Shown: one piece after another, positions 2,897-17,000 of the stretch | Layout of the letters: every line of letters begins with the position of its first letter | How positions within the stretch are numbered: position 1 is the first letter of the stretch | Virus record (IMG/VR): IMGVR_UViG_2529292908_000014 | Coordinates: 1 to 17,277 of that record | Length of the DNA stretch: 17,277 bases | Source: a virus | Lineage: Duplodnaviria; Heunggongvirae; Uroviricota; Caudoviricetes | Direction: 5' to 3' (one strand) | Position numbers and translations under genes: made by a program | The notes under the pieces: model-generated | Told to the model about the DNA's origin: nothing | The model's input: the letters and a program-made list of their open reading frames with translations, nothing else | The model's database searches: none

Positions 2897-5352
2897 CAGT
2901 AAGTTCCTCCCGTGCCTCTGTTACCGTCCTGAAGGTTGTATTTGTTCACTGCTTCCGCCACAATCTGACCATCGAGCACCAGTTGTGTGGTGAAATTAAT
3001 GGGGCTGGCAGGTGGCCCCCAGTGCGTGAGGTATCCCGGCTGGGTGATGCGTCCGGGTTGCGTTGATACTGATTCAGGCGTTGTGTTTCCGGCGGCTTTG
3101 TTGACCTGCGCCGGTGATGGCAGGGCATCAGCTGCGGCTTTTTTCCTGTCTTCCTCCCAGCGCCTCAACCACTCTTCGTTTTCGGTGGAGTAGCCTTCCC
3201 CAAACTGCCACCACGGCTGGTATTTTTTGCGGGCAGCATCGATGATTTCCTGGGGATATCGGGCGCGGATGCGCTTCCAGCGTTCCTCGCTTCCTTCGAC
3301 GGCGGCGTCTTCTTCCGGGCTGGTTGCGGTGGCCAGTGCCGTAACGGTGCCACCGAAAGAAAGCAGGCTACCGGCAATGCCGGGGAATTTAAATCCTTTG
3401 CCTTTTTTGACCGTGTTTTCAATTACATCACCGACAACCTCGCCAGCCTTGCCACCGGTTTTACCCCCGGTCAGGATTTTGATCCCGGCCCATGTCAGAG
3501 CCGCTGCGGTCATCGCTTCAATGGCGGTCGTGGCACCCACCACTGCCGTGGTCAGTCCCGGAAACTTTTCACCCGCCCAGCTTATGGCATCGGCCACAGT
3601 ACCGGACGCATCAGCCAGCTTTTTCATGCTGTCCATTTGTGAAAATTCAAGCGTGTTTTTGGCCTGTTCGGTTTTAAAGTCATTGAGGCCGGATATGAAT
3701 TTAAAATCCACATCACCCGCGCGCTGACCTTCCGGCAGGGTGCGCTGCTGATTAATCGCGTCTTCAACCTTTTTCCGGTATTCAGGGTTGTTACGGTAAG
3801 CCAGCAACGCTTTTAACGCCTGTTGGTCTGCAACCAGTTTCCCGACACCAAAGCCTTCAAGGAGTTTTGCCATCGAATCATAAACAGCTGTCTGCTCGCC
3901 TTTATCCCGGGCGGAGGCCAGTTTCTTTTGCAACTCCTGAAAGCGTTTATCGCTGGCAGCGATTTTGTCTATCAGACTGGACAGCGCATCTATCGGATCA
4001 AGCCCATGTTCGCGCGCCTGAACCAGCGTGCCGGAAAAATCAATTCCTTTACCGTTGTAATCAATGCTCTTTGCCGCTGTTTCAATATCGTGGCTGGTCA
4101 GTTTAGCCAGCAGGTTAAACACGTTATTTCCGGCCTCATCACTGCTTCCCGCCGTGATGGCGGCAGCTTCATTCAGCGCCAGAATCTTGACAAAATCATC
4201 CTTGCCTCTCATCCCCGCAGCTGACGCTGACCCCAGTTGCGAAGATAACCAGCGGGCCATGTCGCTCAGTTCAAAGCTACCTTCTTTGCCCGCTGCAATT
4301 GCCATATTCAGAACGGTGGAAATATCTTCATCCCTGAATCCAAAGGTCTTTTTACCCTTAAGCATCACATTAGCCAGGTCTGTCGCTGATGCACCGGAAG
4401 CCGTGGCGTATTTCATCAGTTCAGGCAGCCACTTACTGGCTGTTTCAAATGAAATACCGCCATCTTTCAGCAGGGCATCCAGCGTTTCGGCGGCGTCTTC
4501 TTTCGTGCCGCCACCCCAGGTCACCGCGTTACGGATGCTGTTTTTCATCTGCTCAAGACCAGCCCTGCGCCCCTCCAGCCCGCTATCACTGAAGGCGGTA
4601 TTGGCCATCATTGCCAGCTGGCGTTCGTAGCTCATCTGCTTTTTGACCGGCTGCGCCATAATGGCAGCACCTGCTGCGATACCAGCGCCTGTTGTCACGG
4701 CATTCCCGCCAAATGCAGCCGCACGGGCAAAACGCCCCGGTTCGGGGATAACCAGGTCAGGACGGTACGGGCCGTGGCGCAGACCACGCAGTTTTTTACC
4801 ACTACCGGCAACGGTCACCTTGATATTGTTGGCCGTGACGATGGTCCCCATACGCCAGACGCGACCCTGCCCGCACACTTCCGGGAAATCGTTTTTTAAA
4901 CGGGGGTTAAACTCCAGTTCAGCCTTGATGGCTTCCAGCATCGGATAAGCCTGGTCGATACTGTCCATAATGATGACCGGGTAATGCTTAATGGCCCGGA
5001 TAATGGTCCACAGGGTAAACAGCTGAGTCACCAGCGTGGATTTTGCTTCACCACGGGGCGCGGCGATGGCGTCGTTCTCCGGGTCCGGGCTTGCCACAAC
5101 CTGTGGCAGACGGCTGAACAGGTATTTATGCAGCTCACTTTTTGCCGGGTTGCGGACGTAGTGCGGGAAATAATTTTCGACAAAATAATCGTAGCCCGTC
5201 ACCGGGTCGCAGACTGCCGCCCGGCGGGCCTGTGTGGCCTGCGGGTTAACATCGAACCCCAGACATTCAGCCTCGATGGTCTGGCGGAGGTTGGCGATGT
5301 ACTCCTGCAGGCTTCTCTGAAACTCTTTAATGGAAAGTTTACGTTTTGCCAC
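2896..5352 (-). CDS. Chimeric ORF: large terminase N-terminal ATPase fragment (about 220 codons, nt 5352->4747) fused in frame to a tail tape-measure protein (about 615 codons, nt 4746->2899); probable deletion product
   Basis: N-terminal part has a deviant Walker A (AAPRGEAKST), Walker-B-like VIIMDSID and the terminase motif LRGLRHGPYRPDLVI, but the expected DDxE and nuclease domain are missing. From PEPGRFARAAAFGG onward the sequence is tape-measure-like (GSFELSDMARWL, Gly/Ala-rich hydrophobic stretch …LTGGKTGGKAGEVVGDVIENT…). The six-frame track gives 2896..5409 from a TTG; GTG at 5350-5352 directly after the methyltransferase stop is the more plausible start. Confidence 0.6.
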   Translation of the reverse strand: MAKRKLSIKEFQRSLQEYIANLRQTIEAECLGFDVNPQATQARRAAVCDPVTGYDYFVENYFPHYVRNPAKSELHKYLFSRLPQVVASPDPENDAIAAPRGEAKSTLVTQLFTLWTIIRAIKHYPVIIMDSIDQAYPMLEAIKAELEFNPRLKNDFPEVCGQGRVWRMGTIVTANNIKVTVAGSGKKLRGLRHGPYRPDLVIPEPGRFARAAAFGGNAVTTGAGIAAGAAIMAQPVKKQMSYERQLAMMANTAFSDSGLEGRRAGLEQMKNSIRNAVTWGGGTKEDAAETLDALLKDGGISFETASKWLPELMKYATASGASATDLANVMLKGKKTFGFRDEDISTVLNMAIAAGKEGSFELSDMARWLSSQLGSASAAGMRGKDDFVKILALNEAAAITAGSSDEAGNNVFNLLAKLTSHDIETAAKSIDYNGKGIDFSGTLVQAREHGLDPIDALSSLIDKIAASDKRFQELQKKLASARDKGEQTAVYDSMAKLLEGFGVGKLVADQQALKALLAYRNNPEYRKKVEDAINQQRTLPEGQRAGDVDFKFISGLNDFKTEQAKNTLEFSQMDSMKKLADASGTVADAISWAGEKFPGLTTAVVGATTAIEAMTAAALTWAGIKILTGGKTGGKAGEVVGDVIENTVKKGKGFKFPGIAGSLLSFGGTVTALATATSPEEDAAVEGSEERWKRIRARYPQEIIDAARKKYQPWWQFGEGYSTENEEWLRRWEEDRKKAAADALPSPAQVNKAAGNTTPESVSTQPGRITQPGYLTHWGPPASPINFTTQLVLDGQIVAEAVNKYNLQDGNRGTGGTY

Positions 5353-5353
5353 G

Positions 5354-6094
5354 TCACACCTGCACTGCTTCTGTCTGGGCTTTTTCGATACGTGCGCAGG
5401 CGATATCAAAATACTGGTTAGTCATTTCAATGCCGGTAAACCGTCCGCCACGGGCAAGTACAGGGATGGCGGTAGTGCCGCTTCCCATAAACGGATCAAG
5501 GACGTGCGCATCCGGTGTCAGCGGTTTAACCAGCTCAGCCATCAGCTGAACCGGCTTTGCGGTCATGTGCAGTTTTTCGGACGGGACGACACGCTGCGTA
5601 ATCACACCCGGGAACGGGCCACCGTGCGGGCATTTGTCGAGTTTTCCGTTGCTGCCCCAGACCACATACTCGGCCTGATGCCGAAAATAGCCAGTGTGTG
5701 GCGCACGGGAAGCCTGCGTTTTATCCCAGACAACCAGACCACGCCACAGCACACCACCGGCCTGAAATGCATCTGTAAGCGCCGGTAGTTGTCGCCAGTC
5801 ACTGAACACCATGAAATAACCGCCGGAATTCAGCCTGTGCAATGCATGAGATATCCACATGGAACACCAGAACGCCCAGCTGCGCTGGTCGCGGTTATCG
5901 CCGGTGAACTCGGCATACTGGGTGTGACCGATATACTTGTCCGAAGGGGCCATGCTGCGGTCTGATTTGTGTGTACCACCACTGCTGTAAGGCGGGTCGG
6001 TAATGACGGCATCAAAACGTTCGGATAACGCCGGCAGCACATCAAGAACATCACCGCAATACAACGTTGCGTTACCAATAATCTGTTTTTGCAT
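5354..6094 (-). CDS. DNA methyltransferase, beta-class amino-methyltransferase (N6-adenine or N4-cytosine), no restriction partner in the window
   Basis: 246-aa ORF from ATG at 6094. Motif IV DPPY near the N-terminus (…DAVITDPPYSSGG…) and motif I FxGxG near the C-terminus (…LDPFMGSGTTAIPV…), the permuted order typical of this class. Confidence 0.85.
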   Translation of the reverse strand: MQKQIIGNATLYCGDVLDVLPALSERFDAVITDPPYSSGGTHKSDRSMAPSDKYIGHTQYAEFTGDNRDQRSWAFWCSMWISHALHRLNSGGYFMVFSDWRQLPALTDAFQAGGVLWRGLVVWDKTQASRAPHTGYFRHQAEYVVWGSNGKLDKCPHGGPFPGVITQRVVPSEKLHMTAKPVQLMAELVKPLTPDAHVLDPFMGSGTTAIPVLARGGRFTGIEMTNQYFDIACARIEKAQTEAVQV

Positions 6095-8591: not shown

Positions 8592-9059
8592 TTAATCAAA
8601 AAGCCCCACCTGGGTGGGGCTTTTCAGCGAAGTCTGTTTTTGTCGTCGGTGTATCAGCTGCCATGCGTACCGGTCTGAAATCCCGTAACGGGGACAAAGC
8701 AGTGCCAGCGCCTGCCGGTGTGAAAATCCGTCTCTGATATGCTGCTGTAAATCAGCCATAAAACGGGCGTTACGCAGAGCACGTAACGCATGATCGCAAC
8801 GGGGAATGTAAAACGGAGCACCGCCAAGAAAGCGGATCAGTTTGTTGATTTCGTCTTCGGTCAGCACGTCATGTAACAGGGCATGGACACCGCCAGTACG
8901 TTCGGCGTGTGCGCCGGTTTTACCGCTTAACGTCACGCCACCAAAAGAACGAATCAACCGGGTCATGGCGGGGAAGCCAATCACGCTAATCAGTTGCTGC
9001 ACGGAATCGGGCAGCAGTGCCTGCGCATCGCGAAGATCTGTTTCACTGAAGGTCTGCAT
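8592..9059 (-). CDS. mor: Mor/C-family transcription activator (middle-operon regulator-like)
   Basis: 155-aa ORF, ATG at 9059 with GGAGA upstream. C-terminal region …LIRFLGGAPFYIPRCDHALRALRNARFMADLQQ…YGISDRYAWQLIHRR matches the Mor/C signature as I recall it (LGG..VYIPR … YG.S…VY.I). Lies immediately after gemA as mor does in Mu; being C instead cannot be excluded. Confidence 0.65.
   Translation of the reverse strand: MQTFSETDLRDAQALLPDSVQQLISVIGFPAMTRLIRSFGGVTLSGKTGAHAERTGGVHALLHDVLTEDEINKLIRFLGGAPFYIPRCDHALRALRNARFMADLQQHIRDGFSHRQALALLCPRYGISDRYAWQLIHRRQKQTSLKSPTQVGLFD
8596..8621 (-). terminator. Hairpin plus short T-tract overlapping the last codons of the mor-like gene (candidate intrinsic terminator, minus strand)
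   Basis: Minus-strand AGCCCCAC-CCAG-GTGGGGCT followed by TTTTGATTAA; 8-bp GC-rich stem, short U-tract. Confidence 0.4.
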
Positions 9060-9121
9060 GATGGCGTCTCCGGTAGTAACTTACTGTTATTATAGCCATA
9101 CATGATCGCCTGTACAGACCA

Positions 9122-9148
9122 CAAAAAAGCCCCTGCAAGGCAGGGGCT
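9122..9148 (-). terminator. Rho-independent terminator-like hairpin between gemA and the mor-like gene (minus strand)
   Basis: Minus-strand AGCCCCTGC-CTT-GCAGGGGCT followed by TTTTTTGT; 9-bp GC-rich stem, 6-T tract; starts 6 nt after the gemA stop. Confidence 0.55.
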
Positions 9149-9154
9149 GATTCT

Positions 9155-9568
9155 TTATTGTTTACGTGCTGCTCTGACTCGTTTTCTGGCGTCTTTTGTC
9201 AGCGCCACCATCACCCCGAAAAGCTGTTCATCCGTCAGCCATTCGATCACATGTTGCTTATACATGTGAGATGCCAGTCCTTCCGCATACACCCAGGAAC
9301 GACCGGCATCAGCCAGTAACGCTTCAATTTTGGATAATACCGATTTTCTGCTCATTGCAACACGAGGGCGGCGACCTTTACCAGCGGGGGCCTTGCGCGG
9401 AAATCCCTGTTCGTGCATGTATTCCCGGATGATGCGCAGTTCATCGAGATTGCAGCGTGTGGTGCTGGTTTTACCTGTCAGGCGGATCAGTGTCTGGCGA
9501 TAAAGAGCATCATCCCACCCCAGATATGCCTGACCGGCTTTAATGGCCCCGATCATCTTTTTCTGCAT
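9155..9568 (-). CDS. gemA: GemA-like regulatory protein (Mu gp16 family)
   Basis: ATG at 9566-9568 preceded by GAGGA; N-terminus MQKKMIGAIKAGQAYLGWDDALYRQTLIRLTGKTSTTRCNLDELRIIREYMHEQGF resembles GemA/DUF1018 proteins as I recall them. The six-frame ORF extends to 9667, but the internal ATG with RBS fits better. Confidence 0.7.
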   Translation of the reverse strand: MQKKMIGAIKAGQAYLGWDDALYRQTLIRLTGKTSTTRCNLDELRIIREYMHEQGFPRKAPAGKGRRPRVAMSRKSVLSKIEALLADAGRSWVYAEGLASHMYKQHVIEWLTDEQLFGVMVALTKDARKRVRAARKQ

Positions 9569-9854
9569 GTTTGTTATCCTCAAAACGCACGGTAAAACGT
9601 GAAACACCAATCCCCAACAGGAACGCGGCGGCACGGTCAAGAGACAGCCACGTCTTGTAATCGCCACGGCGTTCCTGTAGAAAACAGGACACCCCGGCGC
9701 GGCGATTCACAGCGAAGAGGTGATACACACCCCCGAACCGCTGCACGACGAACTCATCCACGCCACCGCTTTCAGCCTGTTGCCTGAAAGCTGCCATTCC
9801 GATTTGTTCAATCTTCATAATGACCAAAACATCATTTTTGGCAGACCAAAACAT
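9540..9854 (-). CDS. Hypothetical early protein (up to 104 aa; start uncertain among 9854, 9818, 9797)
   Basis: Open frame overlapping the gemA start by 29 nt; no convincing Shine-Dalgarno sequence for any start; the longest start lies inside the 28-bp palindrome. Confidence 0.35.
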   Translation of the reverse strand: MFWSAKNDVLVIMKIEQIGMAAFRQQAESGGVDEFVVQRFGGVYHLFAVNRRAGVSCFLQERRGDYKTWLSLDRAAAFLLGIGVSRFTVRFEDNKHAEKDDRGH

Positions 9855-9868
9855 ATGTTTTGGTCTGC
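9841..9868. promoter_or_regulatory. 28-bp perfect palindrome GCAGACCAAAACATATGTTTTGGTCTGC, with a third direct half-site copy at 9822-9832; candidate operator
   Basis: Read directly and checked base by base for self-complementarity; half-site GACCAAAACAT present three times; sits in the 215-bp intergenic gap 9855-10071. Confidence 0.5.
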
Positions 9869-10071
9869 TGTTGGTTATTATTTAATTACTTTGCGTTAGT
9901 GTGATTCTTCCAGCGATTTTGGGCTGCGCTGGGCTTGTTAAGGGAACACATCACAATATCAGCTGTGTTTGTGAACAAACCCATTCTGCGGTTACTGAGT
10001 TTTAGCCATTGCTGGACGCCGCGAGCGTTTCTACAGGTCAAAAGAATTTTTGCTTTACGTTTTTCATCTGA

Positions 10072-10380
10072 TTATTCCCCTGAAATCAGTCCTGAACGGA
10101 TTACTGTTTTTGCAATATGCGCCCGTAATTGCTGCGTTCCGTGGTATTTGATTGCCACATCGCGTAATTTATTAACCAGCTCCCTGAGCTGATACTCTTT
10201 TGCTCCCGGTGTCACCGGAATGATTCCTGCTCTCCGGTATTCCTGAAGCTCCAGCAGGGACTGCCGTAAGAGCGTCCACCACTCTCTGTCTACAATCGGC
10301 CCGCGCATATCAAGCATTTTGTCAGCATCGGCAATCAGTCTGGTCAGGCTCTTATCGCTTATTCTGGTTTGCTGGTTCAC
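10072..10380 (-). CDS. Hypothetical early protein (102 aa)
   Basis: GTG at 10378-10380 overlaps the upstream TGA (GTGA coupling); first ATG at 10317; no recognised motif. Confidence 0.4.
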   Translation of the reverse strand: MNQQTRISDKSLTRLIADADKMLDMRGPIVDREWWTLLRQSLLELQEYRRAGIIPVTPGAKEYQLRELVNKLRDVAIKYHGTQQLRAHIAKTVIRSGLISGE

Positions 10381-10667
10381 TGCGCCGCCTCCTGCTCATT
10401 TTTTTCACTCCGGTATACCAAAATCACGATATCTCCCTGGGTAATTACGCGTGCCGGATCTCCCTGCTGCATACGGTCAATATCAAAAGCGTCATTAAAC
10501 GCATTTAGCGCCTTCACGCGCTTGTCTTTGCGGCGACGTTTTTCACATTGCTTAAAGAACGAAGAAATCAACCACCTGAATGACATAAAAATGATATAGC
10601 CATAACCGATAAGCGCCAGACCTGTATTCATGGCTACATCTATCGTTATCGTTTTATCAATGACCAT
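10377..10667 (-). CDS. Small membrane protein (96 aa, one N-terminal transmembrane helix, basic cytoplasmic segment)
   Basis: ATG at 10667 preceded by AGGAGG; hydrophobic stretch NTGLALIGYGYIIFMSF followed by KQCEKRRRKDKR. Confidence 0.45.
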   Translation of the reverse strand: MVIDKTITIDVAMNTGLALIGYGYIIFMSFRWLISSFFKQCEKRRRKDKRVKALNAFNDAFDIDRMQQGDPARVITQGDIVILVYRSEKNEQEAAQ

Positions 10668-10887
10668 TGCCAGCCTCCTGTTTTGCCACCTTAAACGCCC
10701 GTAACATCGGAACCGTTTTACCGGTGATGACTGTTCTCATTAAAAGACCGCCACCGCTCTCATGGCGCACTTCAGGAGCAACAAACAGCGCCGCATCCAC
10801 AACCCGGCGATAGCGGCGGAACTCCCAGAACCAGCAGGTAACAATGATTTTTGCGGTGACTCCGTAGTCATAAAATTCAATATTCAT
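10657..10887 (-). CDS. Hypothetical early protein (76 aa)
   Basis: ATG at 10885-10887 overlapping the upstream TGA (ATGA coupling). Confidence 0.4.
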   Translation of the reverse strand: MNIEFYDYGVTAKIIVTCWFWEFRRYRRVVDAALFVAPEVRHESGGGLLMRTVITGKTVPMLRAFKVAKQEAGNGH

Positions 10888-11111
10888 TTGCAGTTAAACC
10901 TTCTTTTGTGACGTTCTACAGCAGCTTTCATGGCGTTGTGCACGGTTCTTTTAATAATCCGGCGTCCCGCACTGTCATAGAACCGCCACCGGGAAGCCCC
11001 CGGATATTCAGGGAACTCAACCGCCGCGCTACCGTCATTCATCCTGTATTCGTGGCGTTCTCCGGGCGGCTGGTATATTGCTTCGGTAACACTGAGAAGT
11101 TTAAAAGCCAT
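10884..11111 (-). CDS. Hypothetical early protein (75 aa)
   Basis: ATG at 11111 preceded by GGGGAGGGTG. Confidence 0.45.
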   Translation of the reverse strand: MAFKLLSVTEAIYQPPGERHEYRMNDGSAAVEFPEYPGASRWRFYDSAGRRIIKRTVHNAMKAAVERHKRRFNCK

Positions 11112-11823
11112 CGTTACACCCTCCCCAGTGCCAGCGTTTTGTTGCTCTGACCATTAACCCCCTGATGCAGTCTGGCGTTTTTCCCGGCGATAAAACCGGC
11201 TGTAGCGGCAGACTCTGCACCCCGGCACGCTTTAGCGGTGCGCATATCCCCGTCGCGCAGTCCCTTGGTGCTGTGCAGGTTCTTTCTGTAAAGCTCAAGG
11301 CGGCTTTTTCTTCCGGGGAGACGTCATACACCGCAATGACATCACGGGCACCAAAGACCCAGCCTTCGCAGAACTGGTCGCCACGGGCCACCCGCGTGGA
11401 CGGGCCGCAACGTTTGCAGTGTTTATCCTGATATTTCTTGCGCTCTGCCATCATCTGACGGGAAAGCACATCAAACGCGTAGGCCGCGATTTCCGGGCGG
11501 CTGTCAGGACCATAAAAACGAACGTAACGCTTGAGTGAACCAGAAGCCCGGTATTCGCCGGAGATGTAACACTCGACACCGAAGGCTTTACAGACCAGGT
11601 CACACAGGATGTGCATATAACGCGGCGGTGTACTGGCATCACTCGGCGCACCCGCGCTGGCAGCGTCCTGAATGTCGAACAATTCCGCGTCGTTTTCGCT
11701 GATACCATGCTGGCGCATATAAGCCTGGGCTTTTGCAATAGCGTTAGCGGCTTCTTCCGGGCTTGATGTCCCTCTTGCAAGGCGTAACAGCTTTTTAATT
11801 TTGGCGATGTATTTATTTTTCAT
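11101..11823 (-). CDS. DUF2786-like protein with Cys-rich C-terminal region
   Basis: N-terminus MKNKYIAKIKKLLRLARGTSSPEEAANAIAKAQAYMRQHGISENDAEL matches the DUF2786 pattern as I recall it; several Cys pairs downstream (…CDLVC…, …CKRCGPS…FCEGW…); ATG at 11823. Confidence 0.6.
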   Translation of the reverse strand: MKNKYIAKIKKLLRLARGTSSPEEAANAIAKAQAYMRQHGISENDAELFDIQDAASAGAPSDASTPPRYMHILCDLVCKAFGVECYISGEYRASGSLKRYVRFYGPDSRPEIAAYAFDVLSRQMMAERKKYQDKHCKRCGPSTRVARGDQFCEGWVFGARDVIAVYDVSPEEKAALSFTERTCTAPRDCATGICAPLKRAGVQSLPLQPVLSPGKTPDCIRGLMVRATKRWHWGGCNDGF

Positions 11824-12040
11824 GGTCGTCTGAACCTCAGCATCCTGAATTCTGAATTACGCAACTTCCGGCACGGCCTTCAGGAACATGGGGAGTTCGT
11901 TCTGGCTGCGGTACTGAATGAGCATCTGCTGTCGATTGAGAACTGGTCGCAAGACGATTAAAACAAACGATTGTCAGATTAATTTCGCGGGCGAACTTTT
12001 TTTGCTTTGCGATATTCATAAATAAACTCTCTCTGACTCA

Positions 12041-12078
12041 GGCGTAAGCCAGCCCCGGCGGGTTTACGCCTGTTTTAA
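12041..12078 (+). terminator. Plus-strand hairpin plus T-tract (intrinsic terminator-like) in the opposite orientation to all surrounding genes
   Basis: GGCGTAA…(16 nt, partly self-pairing)…TTACGCC followed by TGTTTTAAAT; the minus-strand reading has no U-tract. Confidence 0.35.
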
Positions 12079-12101
12079 ATAACAATTAAAAACAAATTAA
12101 A

Positions 12102-12293
12102 TTAATGCGGTGCTTTCAGTGTTTCGATTTTAACGAAATAAGGCTCGACATTAATTTCAACCACACAACCACATTTAAAATCTCTGGCAGGTGAAACGGT
12201 TTTCACCACACGACCACCACGCAACGCCGGATGTGCAGTGTGCATGAAGCGAGTCCCTACCGGATACTGCTTATTAAAGTTCTTCGCATTCAT
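12102..12293 (-). CDS. Hypothetical early protein (63 aa)
   Basis: ATG at 12291-12293; overlaps the 3' end of the preceding ORF by 20 nt; no motif recognised. Confidence 0.35.
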   Translation of the reverse strand: MNAKNFNKQYPVGTRFMHTAHPALRGGRVVKTVSPARDFKCGCVVEINVEPYFVKIETLKAPH

Positions 12294-12507
12294 GGCGTGG
12301 CCTCCAGCCCTTCAGGTGAGCGTTAGCGCAGAACTCCGCACGATGTTCAGCCCAGATGCGGCGCAGGGTGCTACACGGGCTTTGCGCTGCCTTGCGCCAC
12401 AGTTTTTCTGCCTCATCATAATCGCCGCGTTGTTCTGCTCTGGATGCACCCAGCGAATACGCCGCGCAACGATTTCCGGCTCTGTACTCTTTGATATCCT
12501 GATGCAT
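12274..12507 (-). CDS. Small protein, possibly ANR-family-like regulator (77 aa)
   Basis: ATG at 12505-12507, 1 nt after the upstream TAA; pattern …AEQRGDYDEAEKLWRKAA…WAEHRAEFC… resembles small ANR-type proteins as I recall them (low certainty). Confidence 0.35.
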   Translation of the reverse strand: MHQDIKEYRAGNRCAAYSLGASRAEQRGDYDEAEKLWRKAAQSPCSTLRRIWAEHRAEFCANAHLKGWRPRHECEEL

Positions 12508-12508
12508 G

Positions 12509-13153
12509 TTAAACCCCTGCAATATCAAGCGGGATTGCGCGGTATTCATCAGAATCACCAACGCGCTCATACACACGAATATAGCTCTTGCTGCCAATCA
12601 CCTGGACGGCTTCACCAATCAGCATCATGGCGTTATTCCAGCGTTCGTCCTCAATTTCGAGGCGACGCAGGGCCAGAACGCGCCCTGTGTTAATGTTGCC
12701 TTCCTTGTCCGTGCTGAATGCCTCGCTAATGATGGCTTTAATTTCAGGGCGCGCACCTTCCGTCCAGTCAGCCAGGCAATCATCAATCAGCGACTTCGCG
12801 GTCTGAATGCGTTCATCAAACGCGATACGGTCCTGCATGGCGCGCTGAATCTTGTATCGCCCGTCAAAGCTGTAAAGCGTGATATTGCCTTTTTTGCCGC
12901 CTTTCACAGCGCCGTATTTCTCCGCCGACAGGTCAATAAATGCCTGGATATCACCAAACGCACGCAGTTTCAGTTCCCGCAGTGAGGCGGAGGCAGCAAT
13001 CACCATCTCCACAAGCTCACCGACCAGCTGCTCGCGGTCGCGGTCAATATCTTTGATAAGGCTTTCAGGTGTCATTACGCCACGGGCATCCACCCAGTAA
13101 CCTTCAGGCGCTTGAGTTTTCGTGTATTGCTTAACTTTATTTTCAGTCGTCAT
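12509..13153 (-). CDS. Mu-like early-region protein (214 aa), possibly DUF3164 family; does not resemble Mu Gam as I recall it
   Basis: ATG at 13151-13153 preceded by GAGGT; long clean ORF; family assignment from memory only. Confidence 0.5.
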   Translation of the reverse strand: MTTENKVKQYTKTQAPEGYWVDARGVMTPESLIKDIDRDREQLVGELVEMVIAASASLRELKLRAFGDIQAFIDLSAEKYGAVKGGKKGNITLYSFDGRYKIQRAMQDRIAFDERIQTAKSLIDDCLADWTEGARPEIKAIISEAFSTDKEGNINTGRVLALRRLEIEDERWNNAMMLIGEAVQVIGSKSYIRVYERVGDSDEYRAIPLDIAGV

Positions 13154-13182
13154 AATTAAATTACCTCAGTGATATTTACAGA

Positions 13183-13398
13183 TTAATGTGTGTTATGTGC
13201 GCGAGGCGCAACGTTTTCAGAAAAAAGATTCACGCCGTTATAGTCATTTCTAAGCGTTTCCTTGATAACATTATGTAATCCTGTTGCCACCTGAAGCTCC
13301 CTTTTGGAAGTGCCATCCTTCGAATAACTCCCTGTAATCCGGGTAAGAGTCGCGCCTTTTTCATTGGTATAGATAATTACTTCTAATTTAACCGCCAT
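13183..13398 (-). CDS. Hypothetical early protein (71 aa)
   Basis: ATG at 13396-13398 preceded by GAGAGGAAA; begins 13 nt after the upstream TGA. Confidence 0.5.
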   Translation of the reverse strand: MAVKLEVIIYTNEKGATLTRITGSYSKDGTSKRELQVATGLHNVIKETLRNDYNGVNLFSENVAPRAHNTH

Positions 13399-13410
13399 TC
13401 TGATTTCCTC

Positions 13411-13650
13411 TCATTGCCATACGACGGTACAGCCGTCGATACAGGACGTTTTAACCACGCGGCGCAGGCCGCTGAATGTCTGAACGATTTCCGTTACCGG
13501 CCATACAGGACCACCCACAGGCGGGCAGGCATAAACCACAGGTAAACGGTGATGCTGCCCCGTTACGCGACCGCCAGTGGTATGGATAGCCACACGGGCA
13601 CGGGAACGGACGGCATTAATGGCCTGCTTTTCCATCATTTTGTTCTCCAT
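13411..13650 (-). CDS. Hypothetical early protein (79 aa from ATG at 13650; MENKMMEKQ…), contains several Cys
   Basis: ATG at 13648-13650 overlaps a TGA as TGATG; this junction lies inside the downstream copy of the 19-bp direct repeat; the six-frame ORF extends to 13728. Confidence 0.4.
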   Translation of the reverse strand: MENKMMEKQAINAVRSRARVAIHTTGGRVTGQHHRLPVVYACPPVGGPVWPVTEIVQTFSGLRRVVKTSCIDGCTVVWQ

Positions 13651-13668
13651 CAGTGAATTAACATTTCT
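13650..13668. repeat. 19-bp direct repeat, copy 1 (tcagtgaattaacatttct)
   Basis: Exact match to 14022-14040, read directly; on the coding strand it encodes E-M-L-I-H-stop. Confidence 0.8.
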
Positions 13669-13789
13669 CTGCTGTATTATCTGAGCGTAAACGCCAGTCG
13701 GGGCTGATACCGGGGCAGGTGGGCACACATGCGTGCAAGGCGGTAAGCCCGACGAAACCCCTGCAAAGTCTGCTCAAAAGGAATAATCA

Positions 13790-14008
13790 TTAATCGCGCA
13801 CAGCATTCATCAACATCCCAGTCGTCGCTGGTGTTTCCGGTTCCATTGATTTCCCGTTCGCGGGAATATAAATCAATACGCAGTTCACCCGGCACGAAGC
13901 AATCAACAAACGGAATAATTTCACCGGGGGTTCCATTAAAATAAATACAACCATTACGACCGATATTCCGTAGTGCTTTAATTTCTTTTTTACGGCAATC
14001 TGTTCCAT
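13790..14008 (-). CDS. Hypothetical small protein (72 aa) at the Mu kil position; gene call uncertain
   Basis: ATG at 14006-14008, 13 nt after the B stop, weak AAGG upstream. An alternative stop-free frame (B's frame, 14021->13680, 114 codons without a canonical start) overlaps it, so which frame is coding is unresolved. Confidence 0.3.
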   Translation of the reverse strand: MEQIAVKKKLKHYGISVVMVVFILMEPPVKLFRLLIASCRVNCVLIYIPANGKSMEPETPATTGMLMNAVRD

Positions 14009-14021
14009 ACCTGACCTTTAC

Positions 14022-14040
14022 TCAGTGAATTAACATTTCT
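14022..14040. repeat. 19-bp direct repeat, copy 2 (tcagtgaattaacatttct), covering the last codons and stop of B
   Basis: Exact match to 13650-13668. Confidence 0.8.
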
Positions 14041-14915
14041 GCGAATTTATCTATGGCCTGCACACTGACCGGCGCATCGCTGATATCGCAAATCCGGTAC
14101 ACACCGCGCGCCAGTTTGAACAGGCGGCGGGCATTACCCAGCGAGCGCGCGTAAAGCGCCTCGCTGATTTCCGGTTCTGCTGCTTCCGGCATCAGCCCGG
14201 TGGCTATCTGGTTAAAATCTTCCTGCGCCAGCGTGTCGCCCAGGTTAAGCGCCAGCGCCACGCGGCTGTATAACTGCGCAAATTCACCACGACGCCCCTT
14301 GAGATTAATCAGAAGACGAGGCATACCCGCCAGGACAACCCCGATACCCGCTTTATCATGCAGACGGCGCAGAACCTCCAGTGCGCGATAGGGGAGCAGT
14401 TCAGCTTCGTCCACCATCAGCAGACGACCGGAATCACGCAGTTCGCGCACACAGGCATCAATCAGTTCGTGAATGTTGCCGCGAACCTTTACCCCCAGCT
14501 GGCGGCACAACTCCTCAAGCAGTGTCCTGGCTGTATAGCCCGGGTCAGCCTCAATCAGGACCGCATCCCGGTTTCTGGCGGCGTATTCACGCAGAATCAT
14601 TGTTTTGCCAAGGCCAGCTGCGCCATACAGCACACAGATTTCACATTCCAGGTGAGCGTAGGCCAGCACCTCCAGTCCTTTGGCAGCCATACCAGTGGTC
14701 ACAAACTTTGCTTTAATACGGCGGCTGTTTTCCTTTTCCCGCTCACGGGTCACAAAGGCAGAAATGCGTTCTTCAATATCAGCCATATCGCCCTGATATT
14801 TACCCTGCAAATACTGGTTGATAACGGCGCTGCTACGACCAATTGCACGGGCGACGTGGGTCTGCGTATAGCCGCGACGGGCCATTACGTCATTTAATTG
14901 CGTAATTAAACTCAT
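14022..14915 (-). CDS. B: Transposition ATPase B (MuB-like AAA+ target DNA activator)
   Basis: 297-aa ORF, ATG at 14915 with AAGG upstream. N-terminal HTH-like segment ending …VINQYLQGKYQGD (Mu B has …FINDKYNGD), Walker A GAAGLGKT, Walker B LLMVDEAELL. Follows A as in Mu. Confidence 0.85.
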   Translation of the reverse strand: MSLITQLNDVMARRGYTQTHVARAIGRSSAVINQYLQGKYQGDMADIEERISAFVTREREKENSRRIKAKFVTTGMAAKGLEVLAYAHLECEICVLYGAAGLGKTMILREYAARNRDAVLIEADPGYTARTLLEELCRQLGVKVRGNIHELIDACVRELRDSGRLLMVDEAELLPYRALEVLRRLHDKAGIGVVLAGMPRLLINLKGRRGEFAQLYSRVALALNLGDTLAQEDFNQIATGLMPEAAEPEISEALYARSLGNARRLFKLARGVYRICDISDAPVSVQAIDKFAEMLIH

Positions 14916-14933: not shown

Positions 14934-17000
14934 TTAACGGTTGTTTGTGCCGTTTTTCTTTAAATTGCGCTCGCGTTCAGATGCGAATAAATAAAGTTCT
15001 TCTTTTTCCTTTTTCTCCGGGCGCTCCAGACCAAATCCAAAATTAAACTCAGATTTCTGCGTAATAGCCGGGGTAAGCTCGCGTTTCGCCTCTTCGATTT
15101 TCTGCGTGGCCCGTGCAATACGGCCCCTGACGCGTTTCTCCAGTTTTTGCTCGATAACTGGTTTAGCGAAGGCATCAACCTTATTGCCGTTCCAGATGGC
15201 ATCGCAGATATAAGAGCCATCAGCCCGCCGGACAATGACACTGTTTGCATCATGAATATCGTAACTGACCCTGACTTCATTCCCGTGCTCTGCGGCCAGC
15301 TCATATGAGTAATAAATATTGTTGAATAACTGAATTTCCCCGCGAAATGTTTTGCGCGTCACCTCCGGTCTGAACATTTCATGCAGTTCTTCCGGCGACA
15401 GGAAATCAATTTCAACATTCTGCTCTTTTATCAGTTTCCGGCGATACGCTGCCGGGCTGTAATATTCGCCATCCTCTTTGCGGGGAAGGCTGCTGTGTGG
15501 CCGGTTGTTATAGCGTCTGACCTCCAGCTCTATGGCCGCCATCAGTTGCTCAAAGGTGGGGATTTCATCCCTCGCCTTAACCTGCCGTTTTGTCAGCTCT
15601 TTCCCTTTGTGGGTGGCCTTAATGGCTGACTGCATAATCCGTTGCTGCATCATTACGGTTTCCTTGTCTGCTCCCTTTGAGCAGTACGTCCGGAAACTCA
15701 GGGCCACATCCCGGGGAATTTCCTTGTTAAGCCTTTCAATCACCCCGCGCCCCTGTGGGTTACCTGGTATCCCCGTGTGATGTTCCACACCCAGCCGGGG
15801 GAGAACCCCGGTAATATCGGCATCAAGCACCCGGTTTTTTTCGCCGCCCCCGTTATCGGAGTAATAAATCAGCGGTATCCCGTGCTGTGCCATGCCGTAA
15901 CGCAACGCATCAGCAACGGCTATCACGTTTTCCGACAGGGACAGTGACCAGCCCACAACAAAGCGCTGCCCCGCATCCATAACCAGCGTCACTTCTGGCC
16001 GGAAAATATTGCCGGTCAGGGGGTTAAACGCGGTCATTTTCATACAGTGACCATCCCCGACCCATACCGCATTAACCGGTAATGTGCTCCAGTCGCGCCG
16101 CACAAAGGGATTGAGCGAACGCCAGGCTGAACCGGTGGAGCGGAAACGCTCTTTAACAATCACCGGGACGCTGCTTAACACCCGTCTGACTGCGTGAACT
16201 GAGGGCAGTGCCGCCAGCATTCCCGCATCGTTCGCGTGCTTCTCATGCCACCAGGCTGAAAACTCGCGATACGCATATTCAACGGTCGGGCGCTTCCATG
16301 AGCGATAGAACATAAAGAAATCGCTCAACCACCAGACCTGCTCCCACGGTGTTCCCTTATGATGACCGGGAGCCAGTAACGCCAGTAACTGATTGGCATC
16401 ACCGCGCGCCATCACCCAGCTGGAGTACCAGCTATCCAGGCTGCCGGTGCTGACACCGGTTCGCTTTCCCTGACGTGCATTTGCAGTATTCGCTGCTTCG
16501 ATAATGCGGTCAGGTAACGCCCCCATGCGCACACCATCAACGATGTGCTTTAACGCGGCCTTCCTGGTCATTCTGGCGTATTCACGCAGTTTATGCACTT
16601 CAGTAGCCAGCAATATCCGCGCATCAGCAATGGCCTTTTGCTTGTCGGTCAGTGCCTGGACTTCGCGTAATGCCAGTTCCGGGCATTTGACCATCACTTC
16701 CAGTTCATCGCGAACAGCAACGTTTTTAACTGCCTTCTGCTCAACCACAACGGGCAGTTGTGCATCTTCCAGAACCTGCTGGGCTAGACGTTGACGTAAA
16801 GCCTTCTGCGTTTCAGTGGGAAGGCTATGAATATGATATTCAACACCCCCACCTTTCATTTCTCTAACTCTACTCGCCCACTTATCTCGCTTCGCTTTTA
16901 CCGCAATCCCTACTCGTGTTGATGGAATTCCCGGCAAAGATAGATCTGCTAATTCTTGGGCCGAATAGTGCGTTTTTACACAGTCATCACTCATAACCAC
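14934..17000 (-). CDS. A: Mu-type DDE transposase A
   Basis: 688-aa ORF. N-terminus …AQELADLSLPGIPSTRVGIAVKAKRDKWASRVREMKGGGVEYHIHSLPTETQKAL parallels the MuA enhancer-binding domain as I recall it. Size and position between ner and B. Likely start at ATG 16992-16994 (track start 17000 is GTG). Confidence 0.9.
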   Translation of the reverse strand: MVMSDDCVKTHYSAQELADLSLPGIPSTRVGIAVKAKRDKWASRVREMKGGGVEYHIHSLPTETQKALRQRLAQQVLEDAQLPVVVEQKAVKNVAVRDELEVMVKCPELALREVQALTDKQKAIADARILLATEVHKLREYARMTRKAALKHIVDGVRMGALPDRIIEAANTANARQGKRTGVSTGSLDSWYSSWVMARGDANQLLALLAPGHHKGTPWEQVWWLSDFFMFYRSWKRPTVEYAYREFSAWWHEKHANDAGMLAALPSVHAVRRVLSSVPVIVKERFRSTGSAWRSLNPFVRRDWSTLPVNAVWVGDGHCMKMTAFNPLTGNIFRPEVTLVMDAGQRFVVGWSLSLSENVIAVADALRYGMAQHGIPLIYYSDNGGGEKNRVLDADITGVLPRLGVEHHTGIPGNPQGRGVIERLNKEIPRDVALSFRTYCSKGADKETVMMQQRIMQSAIKATHKGKELTKRQVKARDEIPTFEQLMAAIELEVRRYNNRPHSSLPRKEDGEYYSPAAYRRKLIKEQNVEIDFLSPEELHEMFRPEVTRKTFRGEIQLFNNIYYSYELAAEHGNEVRVSYDIHDANSVIVRRADGSYICDAIWNGNKVDAFAKPVIEQKLEKRVRGRIARATQKIEEAKRELTPAITQKSEFNFGFGLERPEKKEKEELYLFASERERNLKKNGTNNR

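What the first reader, a model, noticed from the sequence alone, without database searches (positions are those of the whole stretch)
9540..13650. Early accessory region of about a dozen small unknown ORFs between B and gemA
In Mu this region is dispensable for growth and encodes host-interaction functions, so it is a plausible place for anti-defence or host-takeover genes. Here it holds translationally coupled minus-strand ORFs of 63-240 codons with overlapping stops and starts and good Shine-Dalgarno sequences. They include a single-pass membrane protein with a basic tail (10377-10667), a DUF2786-like protein with a Cys-rich C-terminal half (11101-11823), a possible ANR-like small regulator (12274-12507), a 214-aa possibly DUF3164-like protein, and Cys-containing 71- and 79-aa proteins. 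No Gam-like protein was recognised. None could be assigned a function from sequence alone.
Basis: inference. Interest (0 to 1): 0.5.

Follow-up and report, generated by a model that had tools for sequence, protein, structure and literature searches.

The report
Early accessory genes of Mu-like prophage
This is the ordinary "semi-essential" early gene block of a defective Mu-like prophage, but one of its unknown genes (DUF3164) sits exactly where related phages carry the DNA-end-protecting Gam gene and may do the same job.

Summary
They run on the minus strand between MuB (14022-14915) and GemA (9155-9568), tightly packed, often with overlapping stops and starts. This is the semi-essential early (SE) region of a Mu-like prophage, found in 75 of 5,426 complete E. 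coli genomes.

Corrections:
- The first ORF is a Kil homologue.
- The ANR, DUF3164, DUF2786/DUF7168 and DUF4752 guesses are confirmed by profile matches.
- The "Cys-rich C-terminal half" of the DUF2786 protein is out-of-frame translation after a 1-nt poly-A deletion.
- The 71-aa protein has no Cys.
- 9886-10041 is a gene fragment, and 11837-12019 is doubtful.
- A further frameshifted 110-aa gene lies between B and kil.
- The prophage has lost 12.7 kb of head and tail genes.

Main lead: Gam is absent, and DUF3164 occupies its place. DUF3164 and Gam never co-occur in 213 related loci. They replace each other precisely in otherwise about 96% identical Pseudomonas phages. They show no detectable sequence or fold similarity. 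I infer, at about 0.4 probability, that DUF3164 is a functional substitute for Gam. No dedicated anti-defence gene was shown.

The parts
13651..14022 (-). 372-bp cassette inserted between B and kil. It is flanked by an 18-bp direct repeat, GAAATGTTAATTCACTGA, which is the 3' end of B (14022-14039) repeated at 13650-13667.
   Evidence: The cassette is absent in E. coli C5, where kil directly abuts B. It is present in 10 E. coli complete genomes.
13677..14008 (-). i110, a 110-aa gene of unknown function that is frameshifted in the window. The A-run at 13986-13991 is A6; relatives have A7. The site reads GT-A-AAA-AAG, a classic -1 slippery heptamer, and a -1 slip would restore the identical protein.
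   Evidence: The second frame shows substitutions of 5/4/50 by codon position, so it is coding. No Pfam, PHROG or PADLOC hit. Distant homologues occupy the same B|kil slot.
13411..13650 (-). Kil homologue, 79 aa from ATG 13650 or 75 aa from ATG 13638, which has a GGAG Shine-Dalgarno sequence.
   Evidence: phrog_2679 'Kil protein for bacterial septation inhibition', E 5.2e-38. Mu Kil (phrog_2743) cross-hits phrog_2679 at 9.3e-5. BLASTP against Mu Kil gives E 2e-5. hhalign of the two families gives probability 91.6%, E 8.3e-7. It lies immediately downstream of B (after the i110 cassette in this window), as kil does in Mu.
13183..13398 (-). o71, a 71-aa protein of phrog_7438 with unknown function. 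It is found only in the E. coli-type prophage group and has no Cys.
12509..13153 (-). DUF3164 family protein, 214 aa. It occupies the slot that Gam holds in other transposable phages.
   Evidence: PF11363 E 5.5e-81. Exclusivity and cassette swaps. AF2 model pLDDT 84. No PDB fold match. The family has 1,684 clusters at 50% identity, nearly all single-domain proteins of about 205 aa.
12274..12507 (-). ANR (AraC negative regulator) family small protein, 77 aa.
   Evidence: NF033650 57.9 bits against a cut-off of 32. All seven published signature residues are present: A21, E25, A33, W37, A40, W52, R56 (PMC4983702). TPR-like helical motif. Homologues occur in 71 of 133 DUF3164 loci.
12102..12293 (-). 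o63, a 63-aa basic protein of phrog_5591. It is the most constant neighbour of DUF3164 in Enterobacterales.
   Evidence: Present in 98 of 133 loci.
11824..12101 (-). Variable slot. It holds a GC-rich hairpin (about 12039-12072, -19.2 kcal/mol) and the doubtful 60-aa ORF 11837-12019. In E. coli C5 this slot holds two extra genes, a 181-aa phrog_7741 protein and a DUF7448 protein.
11101..11823 (-). DUF2786 + DUF7168 protein gene, frameshifted at the A5 run 11305-11309. The wild-type frame would stop at 11114-11116 and give 236 aa. The window's last ~67 residues are out of frame.
10884..11111 (-). o75, a 75-aa basic protein of phrog_9400, conserved downstream of DUF2786 in 71 of 133 loci.
10657..10887 (-). 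o76, a 76-aa protein of phrog_1001 with unknown function.
10377..10667 (-). DUF4752 protein, 96 aa. It has one hydrophobic segment (residues 16-34) followed by a basic stretch. It is a variable cassette present in about half of close relatives.
   Evidence: PF15944 E 4.7e-40..
10072..10380 (-). o102, a 102-aa chimera. Its N-terminal 51 aa match phrog_14672, which is a 62-aa stand-alone gene in strain JNE21-009. Its C-terminal part matches several unnamed PHROGs; relatives carry an ead/Ea22-like gene somewhere in this region, but the equivalence was not tested.
9886..10041 (-). Truncated remnant (51 codons, TTG start) of a phrog_1380 gene.
   Evidence: Matches profile positions 13-60 of 62. The intact 59-aa version is in JNE21-009.
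9540..9854 (-). o104, a phrog_7844 protein of 104 aa, or 92 aa from ATG 9818. The first ATG lies inside a 12-14-bp-stem palindrome at 9839-9870.
   Evidence: The hairpin is -19.4 kcal/mol, z -7.2.
9155..9568 (-). GemA, the downstream boundary of the region.
   Evidence: PF06252 E 1.2e-17.
9128..9148 (-). Intrinsic terminator right after gemA: a 9-bp GC-rich stem followed by TTTTTT. No terminator-like site inside the accessory block combines a comparable stem with a clean T-run.

Best explanation
The interval is the semi-essential early (SE) region of a Mu-like transposable prophage of E. coli, in a copy that is itself defective. It is read as part of the long early transcript that also makes Ner, transposase A and B. 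Genes are chained by overlapping or closely spaced stops and starts. The first strong intrinsic terminator (long GC stem plus clean T-run) comes only after gemA.

The block has a backbone conserved across many Mu-like prophages: kil, DUF3164, ANR, phrog_5591, DUF2786/DUF7168, phrog_9400, then gemA and mor. Between these lie slots where small cassettes come and go: B|kil, o63|DUF2786 and o76..o104.

Functions, in order of support:
(1) The first gene is a distant homologue of Mu Kil, so on induction it most likely blocks host cell division.
(2) The 77-aa gene is a true ANR-family member. It most likely acts by binding a host regulator (AraC/XylS-type or H-NS) rather than DNA.
(3) DUF3164 fills the place of the missing Gam. 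I infer that it protects Mu's linear DNA ends from, or otherwise neutralises, host exonuclease (RecBCD), using an unrelated fold. My confidence in this sub-claim is about 0.4.
(4) The DUF2786/DUF7168 protein is basic and may bind single-stranded nucleic acid through a KH-like core. This is a weak hint.
(5) The remaining small proteins have no inferable function.

In this copy, two genes (i110 and DUF2786) are broken by single-base losses in poly-A runs.
For: Identity of the region.
- Pfam hits to Mu A, B, GemA and Mor flank it on the same strand.
- Mu has the same layout.
- PMC3325207 states that the Mu SE region has 14 ORFs, is transcribed with A and B, and reduces host viability. [quoted passage not shown]

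Coupling and terminator.

Backbone against variable slots.
- Gene order was read in 133 loci.
- Mosaic BLAST pattern against 18 close relatives.
- Annotation of strains C5 and JNE21-009.

Kil.

ANR.

DUF3164 in place of Gam.
- 0 Gam among the 133 DUF3164 loci, 104 of which (excluding the two E. coli reference loci) span B to GemA, representing 20 sequence clusters.
- 0 DUF3164 in 80 Gam loci, of which 48 are complete. Both results hold even with family HMMs at E <= 1.
- Phage Ab30 and phage D3112 are 95.7% and 96.6% identical up to the start codon and from 17 nt before the stop of ORF13. ORF13 is DUF3164 in Ab30 and Gam in D3112.
- Phages H71 and H72 are 98% identical on both sides of a 2.5-2.9 kb block carrying DUF3164 or Gam.
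- In BcepMu and RS1, DUF3164 lies next to HU-type DNA-binding genes (with an SSB gene one further along in BcepMu).

Frameshifts.
Against: - Nothing here is experimental.
- The exclusivity samples were gathered with single-protein queries, so they cover relatives with at least about 45% (DUF3164) or 57% (Gam) identity. Many loci are near-duplicates. Exclusivity could partly reflect lineage.
- The H71/H72 swap involves several genes, not one.
- A Mannheimia phage has a 63-aa protein labelled 'host nuclease inhibitor' (phrog_803, no Pfam support) next to DUF3164.
- The Kil match to Mu Kil itself is weak: 34% identity over 44 residues.
- The transcription claim rests on consensus scans and analogy with Mu.
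Confidence: 0.8

Rival explanations
1. This is an anti-defence island. On this reading, several of the small ORFs, especially the variable cassettes (i110, o71, o76, DUF4752, o102, o104), are dedicated inhibitors of restriction, CRISPR or other defence systems.
For: - The cassettes are gained and lost between prophages that are 93-99% identical.
- They have no known family function.
- The SE region of Mu is dispensable and affects the host.
- The Gam slot is itself a counter-nuclease function.
Against: - There is no match to anything with a defence-related name.
- No anti-defence catalogue could be searched.
- Several cassettes are fragments or chimeras.
- A DNA methylase elsewhere in the prophage (5354-6094) is a more direct anti-restriction candidate.
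Confidence: 0.25
2. DUF3164 has nothing to do with Gam's role. On this reading, the two are simply markers of two lineages of early-region modules. DUF3164 would then serve some other step, such as transposition or replication assistance, or regulation.
For: - No sequence or fold similarity.
- The H71/H72 exchange is a multi-gene block.
- DUF3164 has its own conserved partners, ANR and o63, in Enterobacterales.
- The sampling is biased towards close relatives.
Against: The Ab30/D3112 exchange is limited to exactly one ORF in a ~96% identical backbone, with ORFs 12 and 14 retained. There is zero co-occurrence in 213 loci, even with HMMs at E <= 1. Both genes lie in the B-to-gemA early interval.
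Confidence: 0.5
3. The block in this window is decaying, unexpressed DNA. The prophage is defective, so the ORFs are relics with no current role in this host.
For: - A 12,685-bp deletion fuses terL to the tape-measure gene, which removes the portal, head, sheath and tube genes.
- There are two frameshifts unique to this copy.
- There is one truncated gene and one chimeric gene.
Against: Twelve of fourteen ORFs are intact. A, B, Ner, GemA and Mor are intact. The single-base losses in A-runs could be sequencing errors. The same poly-A tract also occurs as A7 in other assemblies (P0130, 50 member sequences).
Confidence: 0.2

Closest known systems
Semi-essential early (SE/SEE) region of bacteriophage Mu (kil, gam, sot, arm, cim, gemA, mor; Mup05-Mup17)
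   Same: - It has the same position, between B and gemA/mor, and the same strand as A and B.
- It has about 14 small, tightly packed ORFs.
- A kil homologue comes first after B, and gemA and mor come at the end.
   Different: - Only Kil, GemA, Mor and B have detectable similarity to Mu proteins (B is 32% identical). None of Mup06-Mup15 has a counterpart, and Gam is absent.
- A strong terminator separates gemA from mor.
Mu Gam (PF07352), the Ku-like DNA-end-binding host-nuclease inhibitor
   Same: DUF3164 lies in the same early-region interval. It is strictly alternative to Gam in 213 loci. It replaces the Gam ORF precisely in Ab30 relative to D3112. Its size is similar (205-214 aa against 172-266 aa).
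   Different: There is no sequence similarity (hhalign 0.3%) and no fold match to any solved structure. No biochemical data exist.
ANR family (Aar of enteroaggregative E. coli, Rnr, Cnr)
   Same: It matches NCBIfam NF033650 above the cut-off. It is under 10 kDa. All seven signature residues are present.
   Different: It is encoded in a transposable-phage early operon, not beside an AraC-type virulence regulator. No AraC-family gene was seen in the window. The loop between the second and third signature blocks is two residues shorter. Its binding partner is unknown.
Early regions of BcepMu, B3-like and D3112-like Pseudomonas phages, and Mu-like prophages of Photorhabdus, Xenorhabdus, Pantoea and Yersinia
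   Same: They share the DUF3164 gene and the A-B-...-DUF3164-...-GemA-Mor order. Enterobacterales members also share ANR, phrog_5591, DUF2786 and phrog_9400 in the same order.
   Different: The small cassettes (i110, o71, o76, DUF4752, o102, o104) are confined to the Escherichia-type group.

Membership tests
Mu-type semi-essential early region | Lies between transposition gene B and gemA/mor, on the same strand as A and B | tested here: met
   Pfam hits for A, B, GemA and Mor, all on the minus strand. Mu has the same layout.
Mu-type semi-essential early region | Part of one early transcription unit, with no strong internal terminator | tested here: inconclusive
   A consensus scan finds the only strong stem-plus-T-run terminator at 9128-9148, after gemA. 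Junctions are coupled. There are no expression data.
Mu-type semi-essential early region | Contains kil directly after B | tested here: met
   phrog_2679 E 5.2e-38. hhalign against the Mu Kil family gives 91.6%, E 8.3e-7. In this window kil is separated from B by a 372-bp cassette.
Mu-type semi-essential early region | Contains gam | tested here: not met
   No Gam by BLASTP or phmmer against Mu proteins, or by Pfam. None in 133 related loci.
Mu Kil | Protein of about 75 aa, homologous to Mup05, with a C-terminal G-C-x-[IV]-[IV]-W motif | tested here: met
Mu Kil | Expression blocks cell division or kills the host | not testable with these tools
   Needs induced expression and microscopy.
ANR (AraC negative regulator) family | Scores above the curated cut-off of the family model | tested here: met
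   NF033650 57.9 bits against a cut-off of 32, E 6.4e-16.
ANR (AraC negative regulator) family | Under 10 kDa, with the seven conserved signature residues (A10, E14, A22, W26, A29, W43, R47 of the consensus) | tested here: met
   77 aa. A21, E25, A33, W37, A40, W52 and R56 align with the signature, with a 2-residue shorter loop. This was my reading of the sequence against PMC4983702.
ANR (AraC negative regulator) family | Binds an AraC/XylS regulator or H-NS | not testable with these tools
   Needs two-hybrid or pull-down experiments.
Mu Gam (PF07352) | Sequence or profile similarity of the DUF3164 protein to Gam | tested here: not met
   hhalign probability 0.3%. There is no Pfam Gam hit.
Mu Gam (PF07352) | Ku-like fold | tested here: not met
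Mu Gam (PF07352) | Binds linear DNA ends and protects them from exonuclease | not testable with these tools
   Needs EMSA, RecBCD protection or phage plating assays.
DUF3164 (PF11363) | Full-length match above the gathering score | tested here: met
   271.3 bits against 23.7, profile positions 1-193 of 194.
DUF2786 + DUF7168 proteins | N-terminal DUF2786 helix pair plus a central DUF7168 domain | tested here: met
   The DUF7168 match is cut short at the frameshift, covering profile positions 11-121, against 11-132 in the intact homologue.
DUF4752 (PF15944) | Full-length match above the gathering score | tested here: met
   135.9 bits against 27, profile positions 1-84 of 84.
Known anti-defence proteins (anti-restriction, anti-CRISPR and others) | Match to a catalogued anti-defence family | not testable with these tools
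   No anti-defence profile library was available. Pfam, PHROGs and NCBIfam gave no such name, and PADLOC (defence systems) gave nothing significant.

The most novel reading that the evidence does not exclude
DUF3164 may be a new family that is structurally unrelated to Gam. The family holds about 1,700 clusters at 50% identity and is widespread in transposable phages of Proteobacteria. On this reading it does Gam's job, protecting the phage's linear DNA ends from host RecBCD-type nucleases or disarming those nucleases. It would have displaced Gam by precise cassette exchange in a large share of Mu-like phages.
Probability: 0.35. Interest if true: 0.65.

Novelty: new member of a known kind. Interest (0 to 1): 0.4.

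Why it matters
As described, the region is a routine feature of Mu-like prophages, so on its own it changes little.

It gains value from three results.
- It gives a corrected, gene-by-gene map of a prophage type present in over 1% of complete E. coli genomes.
- It shows that ANR-type small regulators, known from virulence plasmids and islands, are standard equipment of transposable-phage early operons (71 of 133 loci).
- It yields a concrete, cheap-to-test hypothesis for a large domain-of-unknown-function family. DUF3164 and Gam behave as alternative alleles of one genomic slot.

If DUF3164 proves to be a nuclease-countering or end-protecting protein with a new fold, it would add a tool comparable to Mu Gam, which is used to label and protect double-strand breaks. 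It would also explain how Gam-less Mu-like phages survive RecBCD.

Tried and rejected
- Direct comparison with phage Mu proteins (BLASTP, phmmer). Only B, Kil, GemA and Mor match weakly, and none of Mup06-Mup15 matches.
- DUF3164 as a remote homologue of Gam. This is rejected at sequence level (hhalign 0.3%) and finds no support at fold level. A profile search of PDB sequences found nothing.
- A search for domain fusions of DUF3164 in 1.84 billion representatives. The family is essentially single-domain, so this gives no functional hint.
- A zinc-finger reading of the DUF2786 protein. This is rejected because the C-terminal cysteines are out-of-frame and the internal CxxC is not conserved.
- PADLOC scan of ten proteins. 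Nothing meaningful came up; one E2 hit at E 0.0025 was ignored.
- Literature on DUF3164, PF11363 and DUF2786, and on Ab30/D3112/Gam. No functional information was found in the searchable library.
- The 60-aa ORF 11837-12019 and an open plus-strand frame opposite it. There are no family hits, only moderate third-position bias (13/24/45), and PGAP calls it in only some genomes. It is left as doubtful.
- The frameshifts as a general sequencing-error signature. Among sites supported by at least five of the compared relatives, only one candidate (the DUF2786 A-run) is a clear window-specific frame-breaking indel; the i110 site was found separately. This neither proves nor excludes error.
- The source of the window. 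No complete E. coli genome or IMG/VR contig is collinear at over 99% across the region, so every relative is a mosaic.

Full report
**What the window is.** All relevant genes run on the minus strand.
- Pfam identifies a Mu-type transposase A (14934-17000; Mu-transpos_C, HTH_Tnp_Mu_1, rve) and a B-type AAA ATPase (14022-14915).
- It also identifies GemA (9155-9568, PF06252) and Mor (8592-9059).
- A Ner-like ORF ends the window.
- Phage Mu has the same order: ner, A, B, kil, about ten small ORFs including gam, gemA, mor.
- In Mu this interval is the semi-essential (SE) region. It has 14 ORFs, is transcribed with A and B on the long early transcript, and its deletion restores host viability after infection (PMC3325207). 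[quoted passage not shown]
- The finding therefore sits in the SE region of a Mu-like prophage.
- Related prophages at 90-99% identity occur in 75 of 5,426 complete E. coli genomes. None is collinear with the window at over 99%.

**Checking the observation.**
- The ORFs exist at the stated coordinates.
- Junctions are tight. Several stops and starts overlap, and most starts carry a Shine-Dalgarno sequence.
- Against 14-17 related prophages, substitutions fall mainly on third codon positions for kil (26/4/166), DUF3164 (59/47/409), ANR (34/39/184), the N-part of DUF2786 (38/26/321), o75, o76, o104 and GemA. These are genuine coding sequences.
- Every ORF except 11837-12019 belongs to a PHROG family.

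**Corrections.**
- *DUF2786 C-terminus.* The "Cys-rich C-terminal half" is not real. The window has A5 at 11305-11309 where 13 of 13 relatives have A6. Downstream of that run the window frame gives substitutions peaking at codon position 1 and 13 stop codons counted across relatives' alignments. The intact protein (236-238 aa) ends ...SRLELYRKNLH...LALGRV and extends the DUF7168 match. The internal CxxC is not conserved across 57 homologues.
- *Poly-A tract.* The same tract occurs as A7, giving a 178-aa product, in another cluster of 50 sequences. It is a recurrent indel site.
- *71-aa protein.* It has no cysteine.
- *Fragment and chimera.* 9886-10041 is a truncated phrog_1380 gene. 10072-10380 fuses the phrog_14672 N-terminus to a C-terminal part that matches several unnamed PHROGs.
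- *Doubtful ORF.* 11837-12019 has no family and is annotated in only some relatives. It lies in a variable slot that holds two extra genes in E. coli C5.
- *Extra gene.* Just outside the stated range, a 372-bp cassette lies between B and kil. It is flanked by an 18-bp repeat of the B 3' end. It carries a 110-aa gene that is intact in strain JNE21-009 but frameshifted here, A6 against A7.

**What can be assigned.**
- *Kil.* The ORF after B (13411-13650) matches phrog_2679, "Kil protein for bacterial septation inhibition", at 5.2e-38. Mu Kil belongs to phrog_2743 and cross-hits phrog_2679. BLASTP between the two proteins gives E 2e-5 over the C-terminal 44 residues. Profile-profile comparison of the two families gives 91.6% probability, E 8.3e-7. 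Both end in G-C-x-[IV]-[IV]-W. With its position and size, this is a Kil homologue.
- *ANR.* The 77-aa protein passes the curated family cut-off. It carries all seven residues of the published signature: A21, E25, A33, W37, A40, W52, R56 (PMC4983702). ANR proteins act by binding AraC/XylS regulators, and Aar also acts on H-NS (abstracts of PMC4983702 and PMC5570504). ANR homologues occur in 71 of 133 related early regions. That paper mentions phage only in its reference list.

**The Gam question.** No Gam is present.
- I collected 131 loci encoding DUF3164 homologues from species-representative genomes and from IMG/VR, each with 8 kb on either side. Together with two E. coli loci this makes 133.
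- I also collected 80 IMG/VR loci encoding Mu Gam homologues.
- None of the 133 DUF3164 loci has Gam, and none of the 80 Gam loci has DUF3164. This holds by phmmer and by family HMMs even at E <= 1.
- 104 DUF3164 loci and 48 Gam loci span the whole B-to-GemA interval, representing 20 and 7 sequence clusters.
- In annotated phages, Pseudomonas phage Ab30 and phage D3112 are 95.7% identical up to the first base of ORF13 and 96.6% identical from 17 nt before its stop. ORF12 and ORF14 are 94-99% identical as proteins.
- ORF13 itself is DUF3164 in Ab30 (5.2e-80) and Gam in D3112 (1e-37).
- Phages H71 and H72 are 98% identical on both sides of a 2.5-2.9 kb block that carries DUF3164 in one and Gam in the other.
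- In BcepMu, DUF3164 (gp05) lies next to an HU gene (gp04), with an SSB gene (gp03) beyond it. In RS1 it lies next to an HU-type DNA-binding gene.
- The family has 1,684 clusters at 50% identity, almost all single-domain proteins of about 205 aa.
- No paper in the searchable library assigns it a function.

I read this as non-homologous displacement of one gene by another in the same slot. The simplest explanation is a shared role, either protection of the phage's linear DNA ends or neutralisation of host exonuclease. This step is inference, and I put it at about 0.4. The alternative is that these are lineage markers with different jobs. That reading is favoured by the lack of any structural resemblance and by the multi-gene nature of the H71/H72 swap.

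**Other genes.**
- The intact DUF2786/DUF7168 protein models confidently (pLDDT 86, pTM 0.76). It is basic, pI 9.5.
- DUF4752 has one hydrophobic segment followed by a basic stretch.
- o63 (phrog_5591) and o75 (phrog_9400) are conserved partners of the backbone, in 98 and 71 of 133 loci.
- o71, o76, o102, o104, DUF4752 and i110 are confined to the Escherichia-type group and vary between near-identical prophages.
- Nothing matched PADLOC. No anti-defence catalogue was available.

**State of this copy.**
- The prophage is defective. Window 4742-6517 matches DUF1804, a DNA methylase and the first ~617 nt of terL of E. coli C5. Window 743-4752 matches the tape-measure gene from nt 417 onward. A 12,685-bp deletion therefore removes the portal, head, sheath and tube genes, and creates the 837-aa fusion ORF 2896-5409.
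- Together with the two frameshifts, this suggests real decay. Homopolymer sequencing error cannot be excluded for the frameshifts.

**Verdict.**
- The interpretation as an SE region with host-directed functions is right in kind. The specific anti-defence expectation remains untested.
- The region is an ordinary member of a known kind. The one lead worth following is DUF3164 as the alternative to Gam.

Noticed in passing
window 2896-6094, junction at 4742-4752: The prophage has a 12,685-bp internal deletion relative to E. coli C5. The first ~205 codons of terL are fused in frame to the tape-measure gene, giving the 837-aa ORF 2896-5409. The portal, protease, major head, sheath and tube genes are gone. 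The closest IMG/VR relative, L055, is 99.8% identical up to position 4742 and does not share the deletion.
   Followed up: yes
window 13986-13991 (in the gene at 13677-14008): The frameshift in the 110-aa gene falls on GT-A-AAA-AAG, which in the zero frame is the classic A_AAA_AAG -1 slippery heptamer. A -1 ribosomal slip would produce exactly the protein encoded by the A7 relatives (MEQIAVKK-EIKALRN...). This could be a sequencing error, a mutation, or leaky expression by frameshifting.
   Followed up: partly
window 13650-13667 and 14022-14039; also L057, L059, L061, L107, L110, L115: The B|kil cassette is always followed by a copy of the last ~18-20 nt of gene B. Even in distant versions the cassette protein ends ...KMIN while B ends ...EMLIN. 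This suggests that cassettes enter by recombination at this short conserved gene-boundary sequence.
   Followed up: partly
window 9089-9148, minus strand: A strong intrinsic terminator (9-bp GC stem plus T6, -17.7 to -18.1 kcal/mol) lies immediately after gemA. It is followed by a good sigma-70-like promoter match (TGTACA-16-TATAAT, 10 of 12) upstream of mor. So mor may be transcribed separately from the early operon, unlike the textbook Mu arrangement. The annotated Mannheimia Mu-like phage also has a terminator after gemA.
   Followed up: partly
window 9839-9870: A near-perfect palindrome, GCAGACCAAAAC-ATAT-GTTTTGGTCTGC, folds as a 12-bp RNA stem (-19.4 kcal/mol, z -7.2). It encloses the first ATG (9854) of the phrog_7844 gene. 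GTTTTGGTC occurs again 20 nt downstream. It may be an operator, a processing site or a translational control element. PGAP picks different starts (104 or 92 aa) in different genomes.
   Followed up: partly
window 5354-6094: An N6/N4 DNA methyltransferase (PF01555, E 1.7e-24) lies next to the DUF1804 gene in the late region. It is a more direct candidate for an anti-restriction function (self-protective methylation) than any ORF in the early block.
   Followed up: no
window 11305-11309; proteins P0121, P0130, P0149: The poly-A tract in the DUF2786 gene occurs as A5 (window, 240 aa), A6 (intact, 236-238 aa) and A7 (178 aa, a cluster of 50 sequences). A separate frameshift variant also reaches the same alternative C-terminus. 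The gene seems to be broken often in lysogens, or the tract is error-prone in sequencing.
   Followed up: partly
window 12274-12507; loci L007-L134: ANR-family small regulators, described in the literature as partners of AraC-type virulence regulators, are a regular component of Mu-like early operons, in 71 of 133 loci. They usually lie right after DUF3164. The Mannheimia phage annotation also has one.
   Followed up: partly
L221 4546-4737 (Mannheimia phage vB_MhM_3927AP2 gp06): A 63-aa protein labelled 'host nuclease inhibitor' (phrog_803, E 2.4e-16) sits directly upstream of DUF3164. It has no Pfam Gam match and no similarity to the window's o71. The label may be unreliable, or there may be a two-part arrangement that bears on DUF3164 function.
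   Followed up: partly
window ~12039-12072, minus strand: A GC-rich hairpin (-19.2 kcal/mol, z -2.0) without a T-run lies in the 278-bp gap after the phrog_5591 gene. This is the slot where other prophages carry extra genes, DUF7448 and a 181-aa phrog_7741 protein in E. coli C5.
   Followed up: partly
L216 7567-8367 (phage D3112 gam): D3112-type Gam is annotated as 266 aa, with the Gam domain covering only residues 19-156. It matches a separate PHROG (phrog_18351, 298 positions). The ~100-aa C-terminal extension is uncharacterised and is part of what DUF3164 replaces in Ab30.
   Followed up: no
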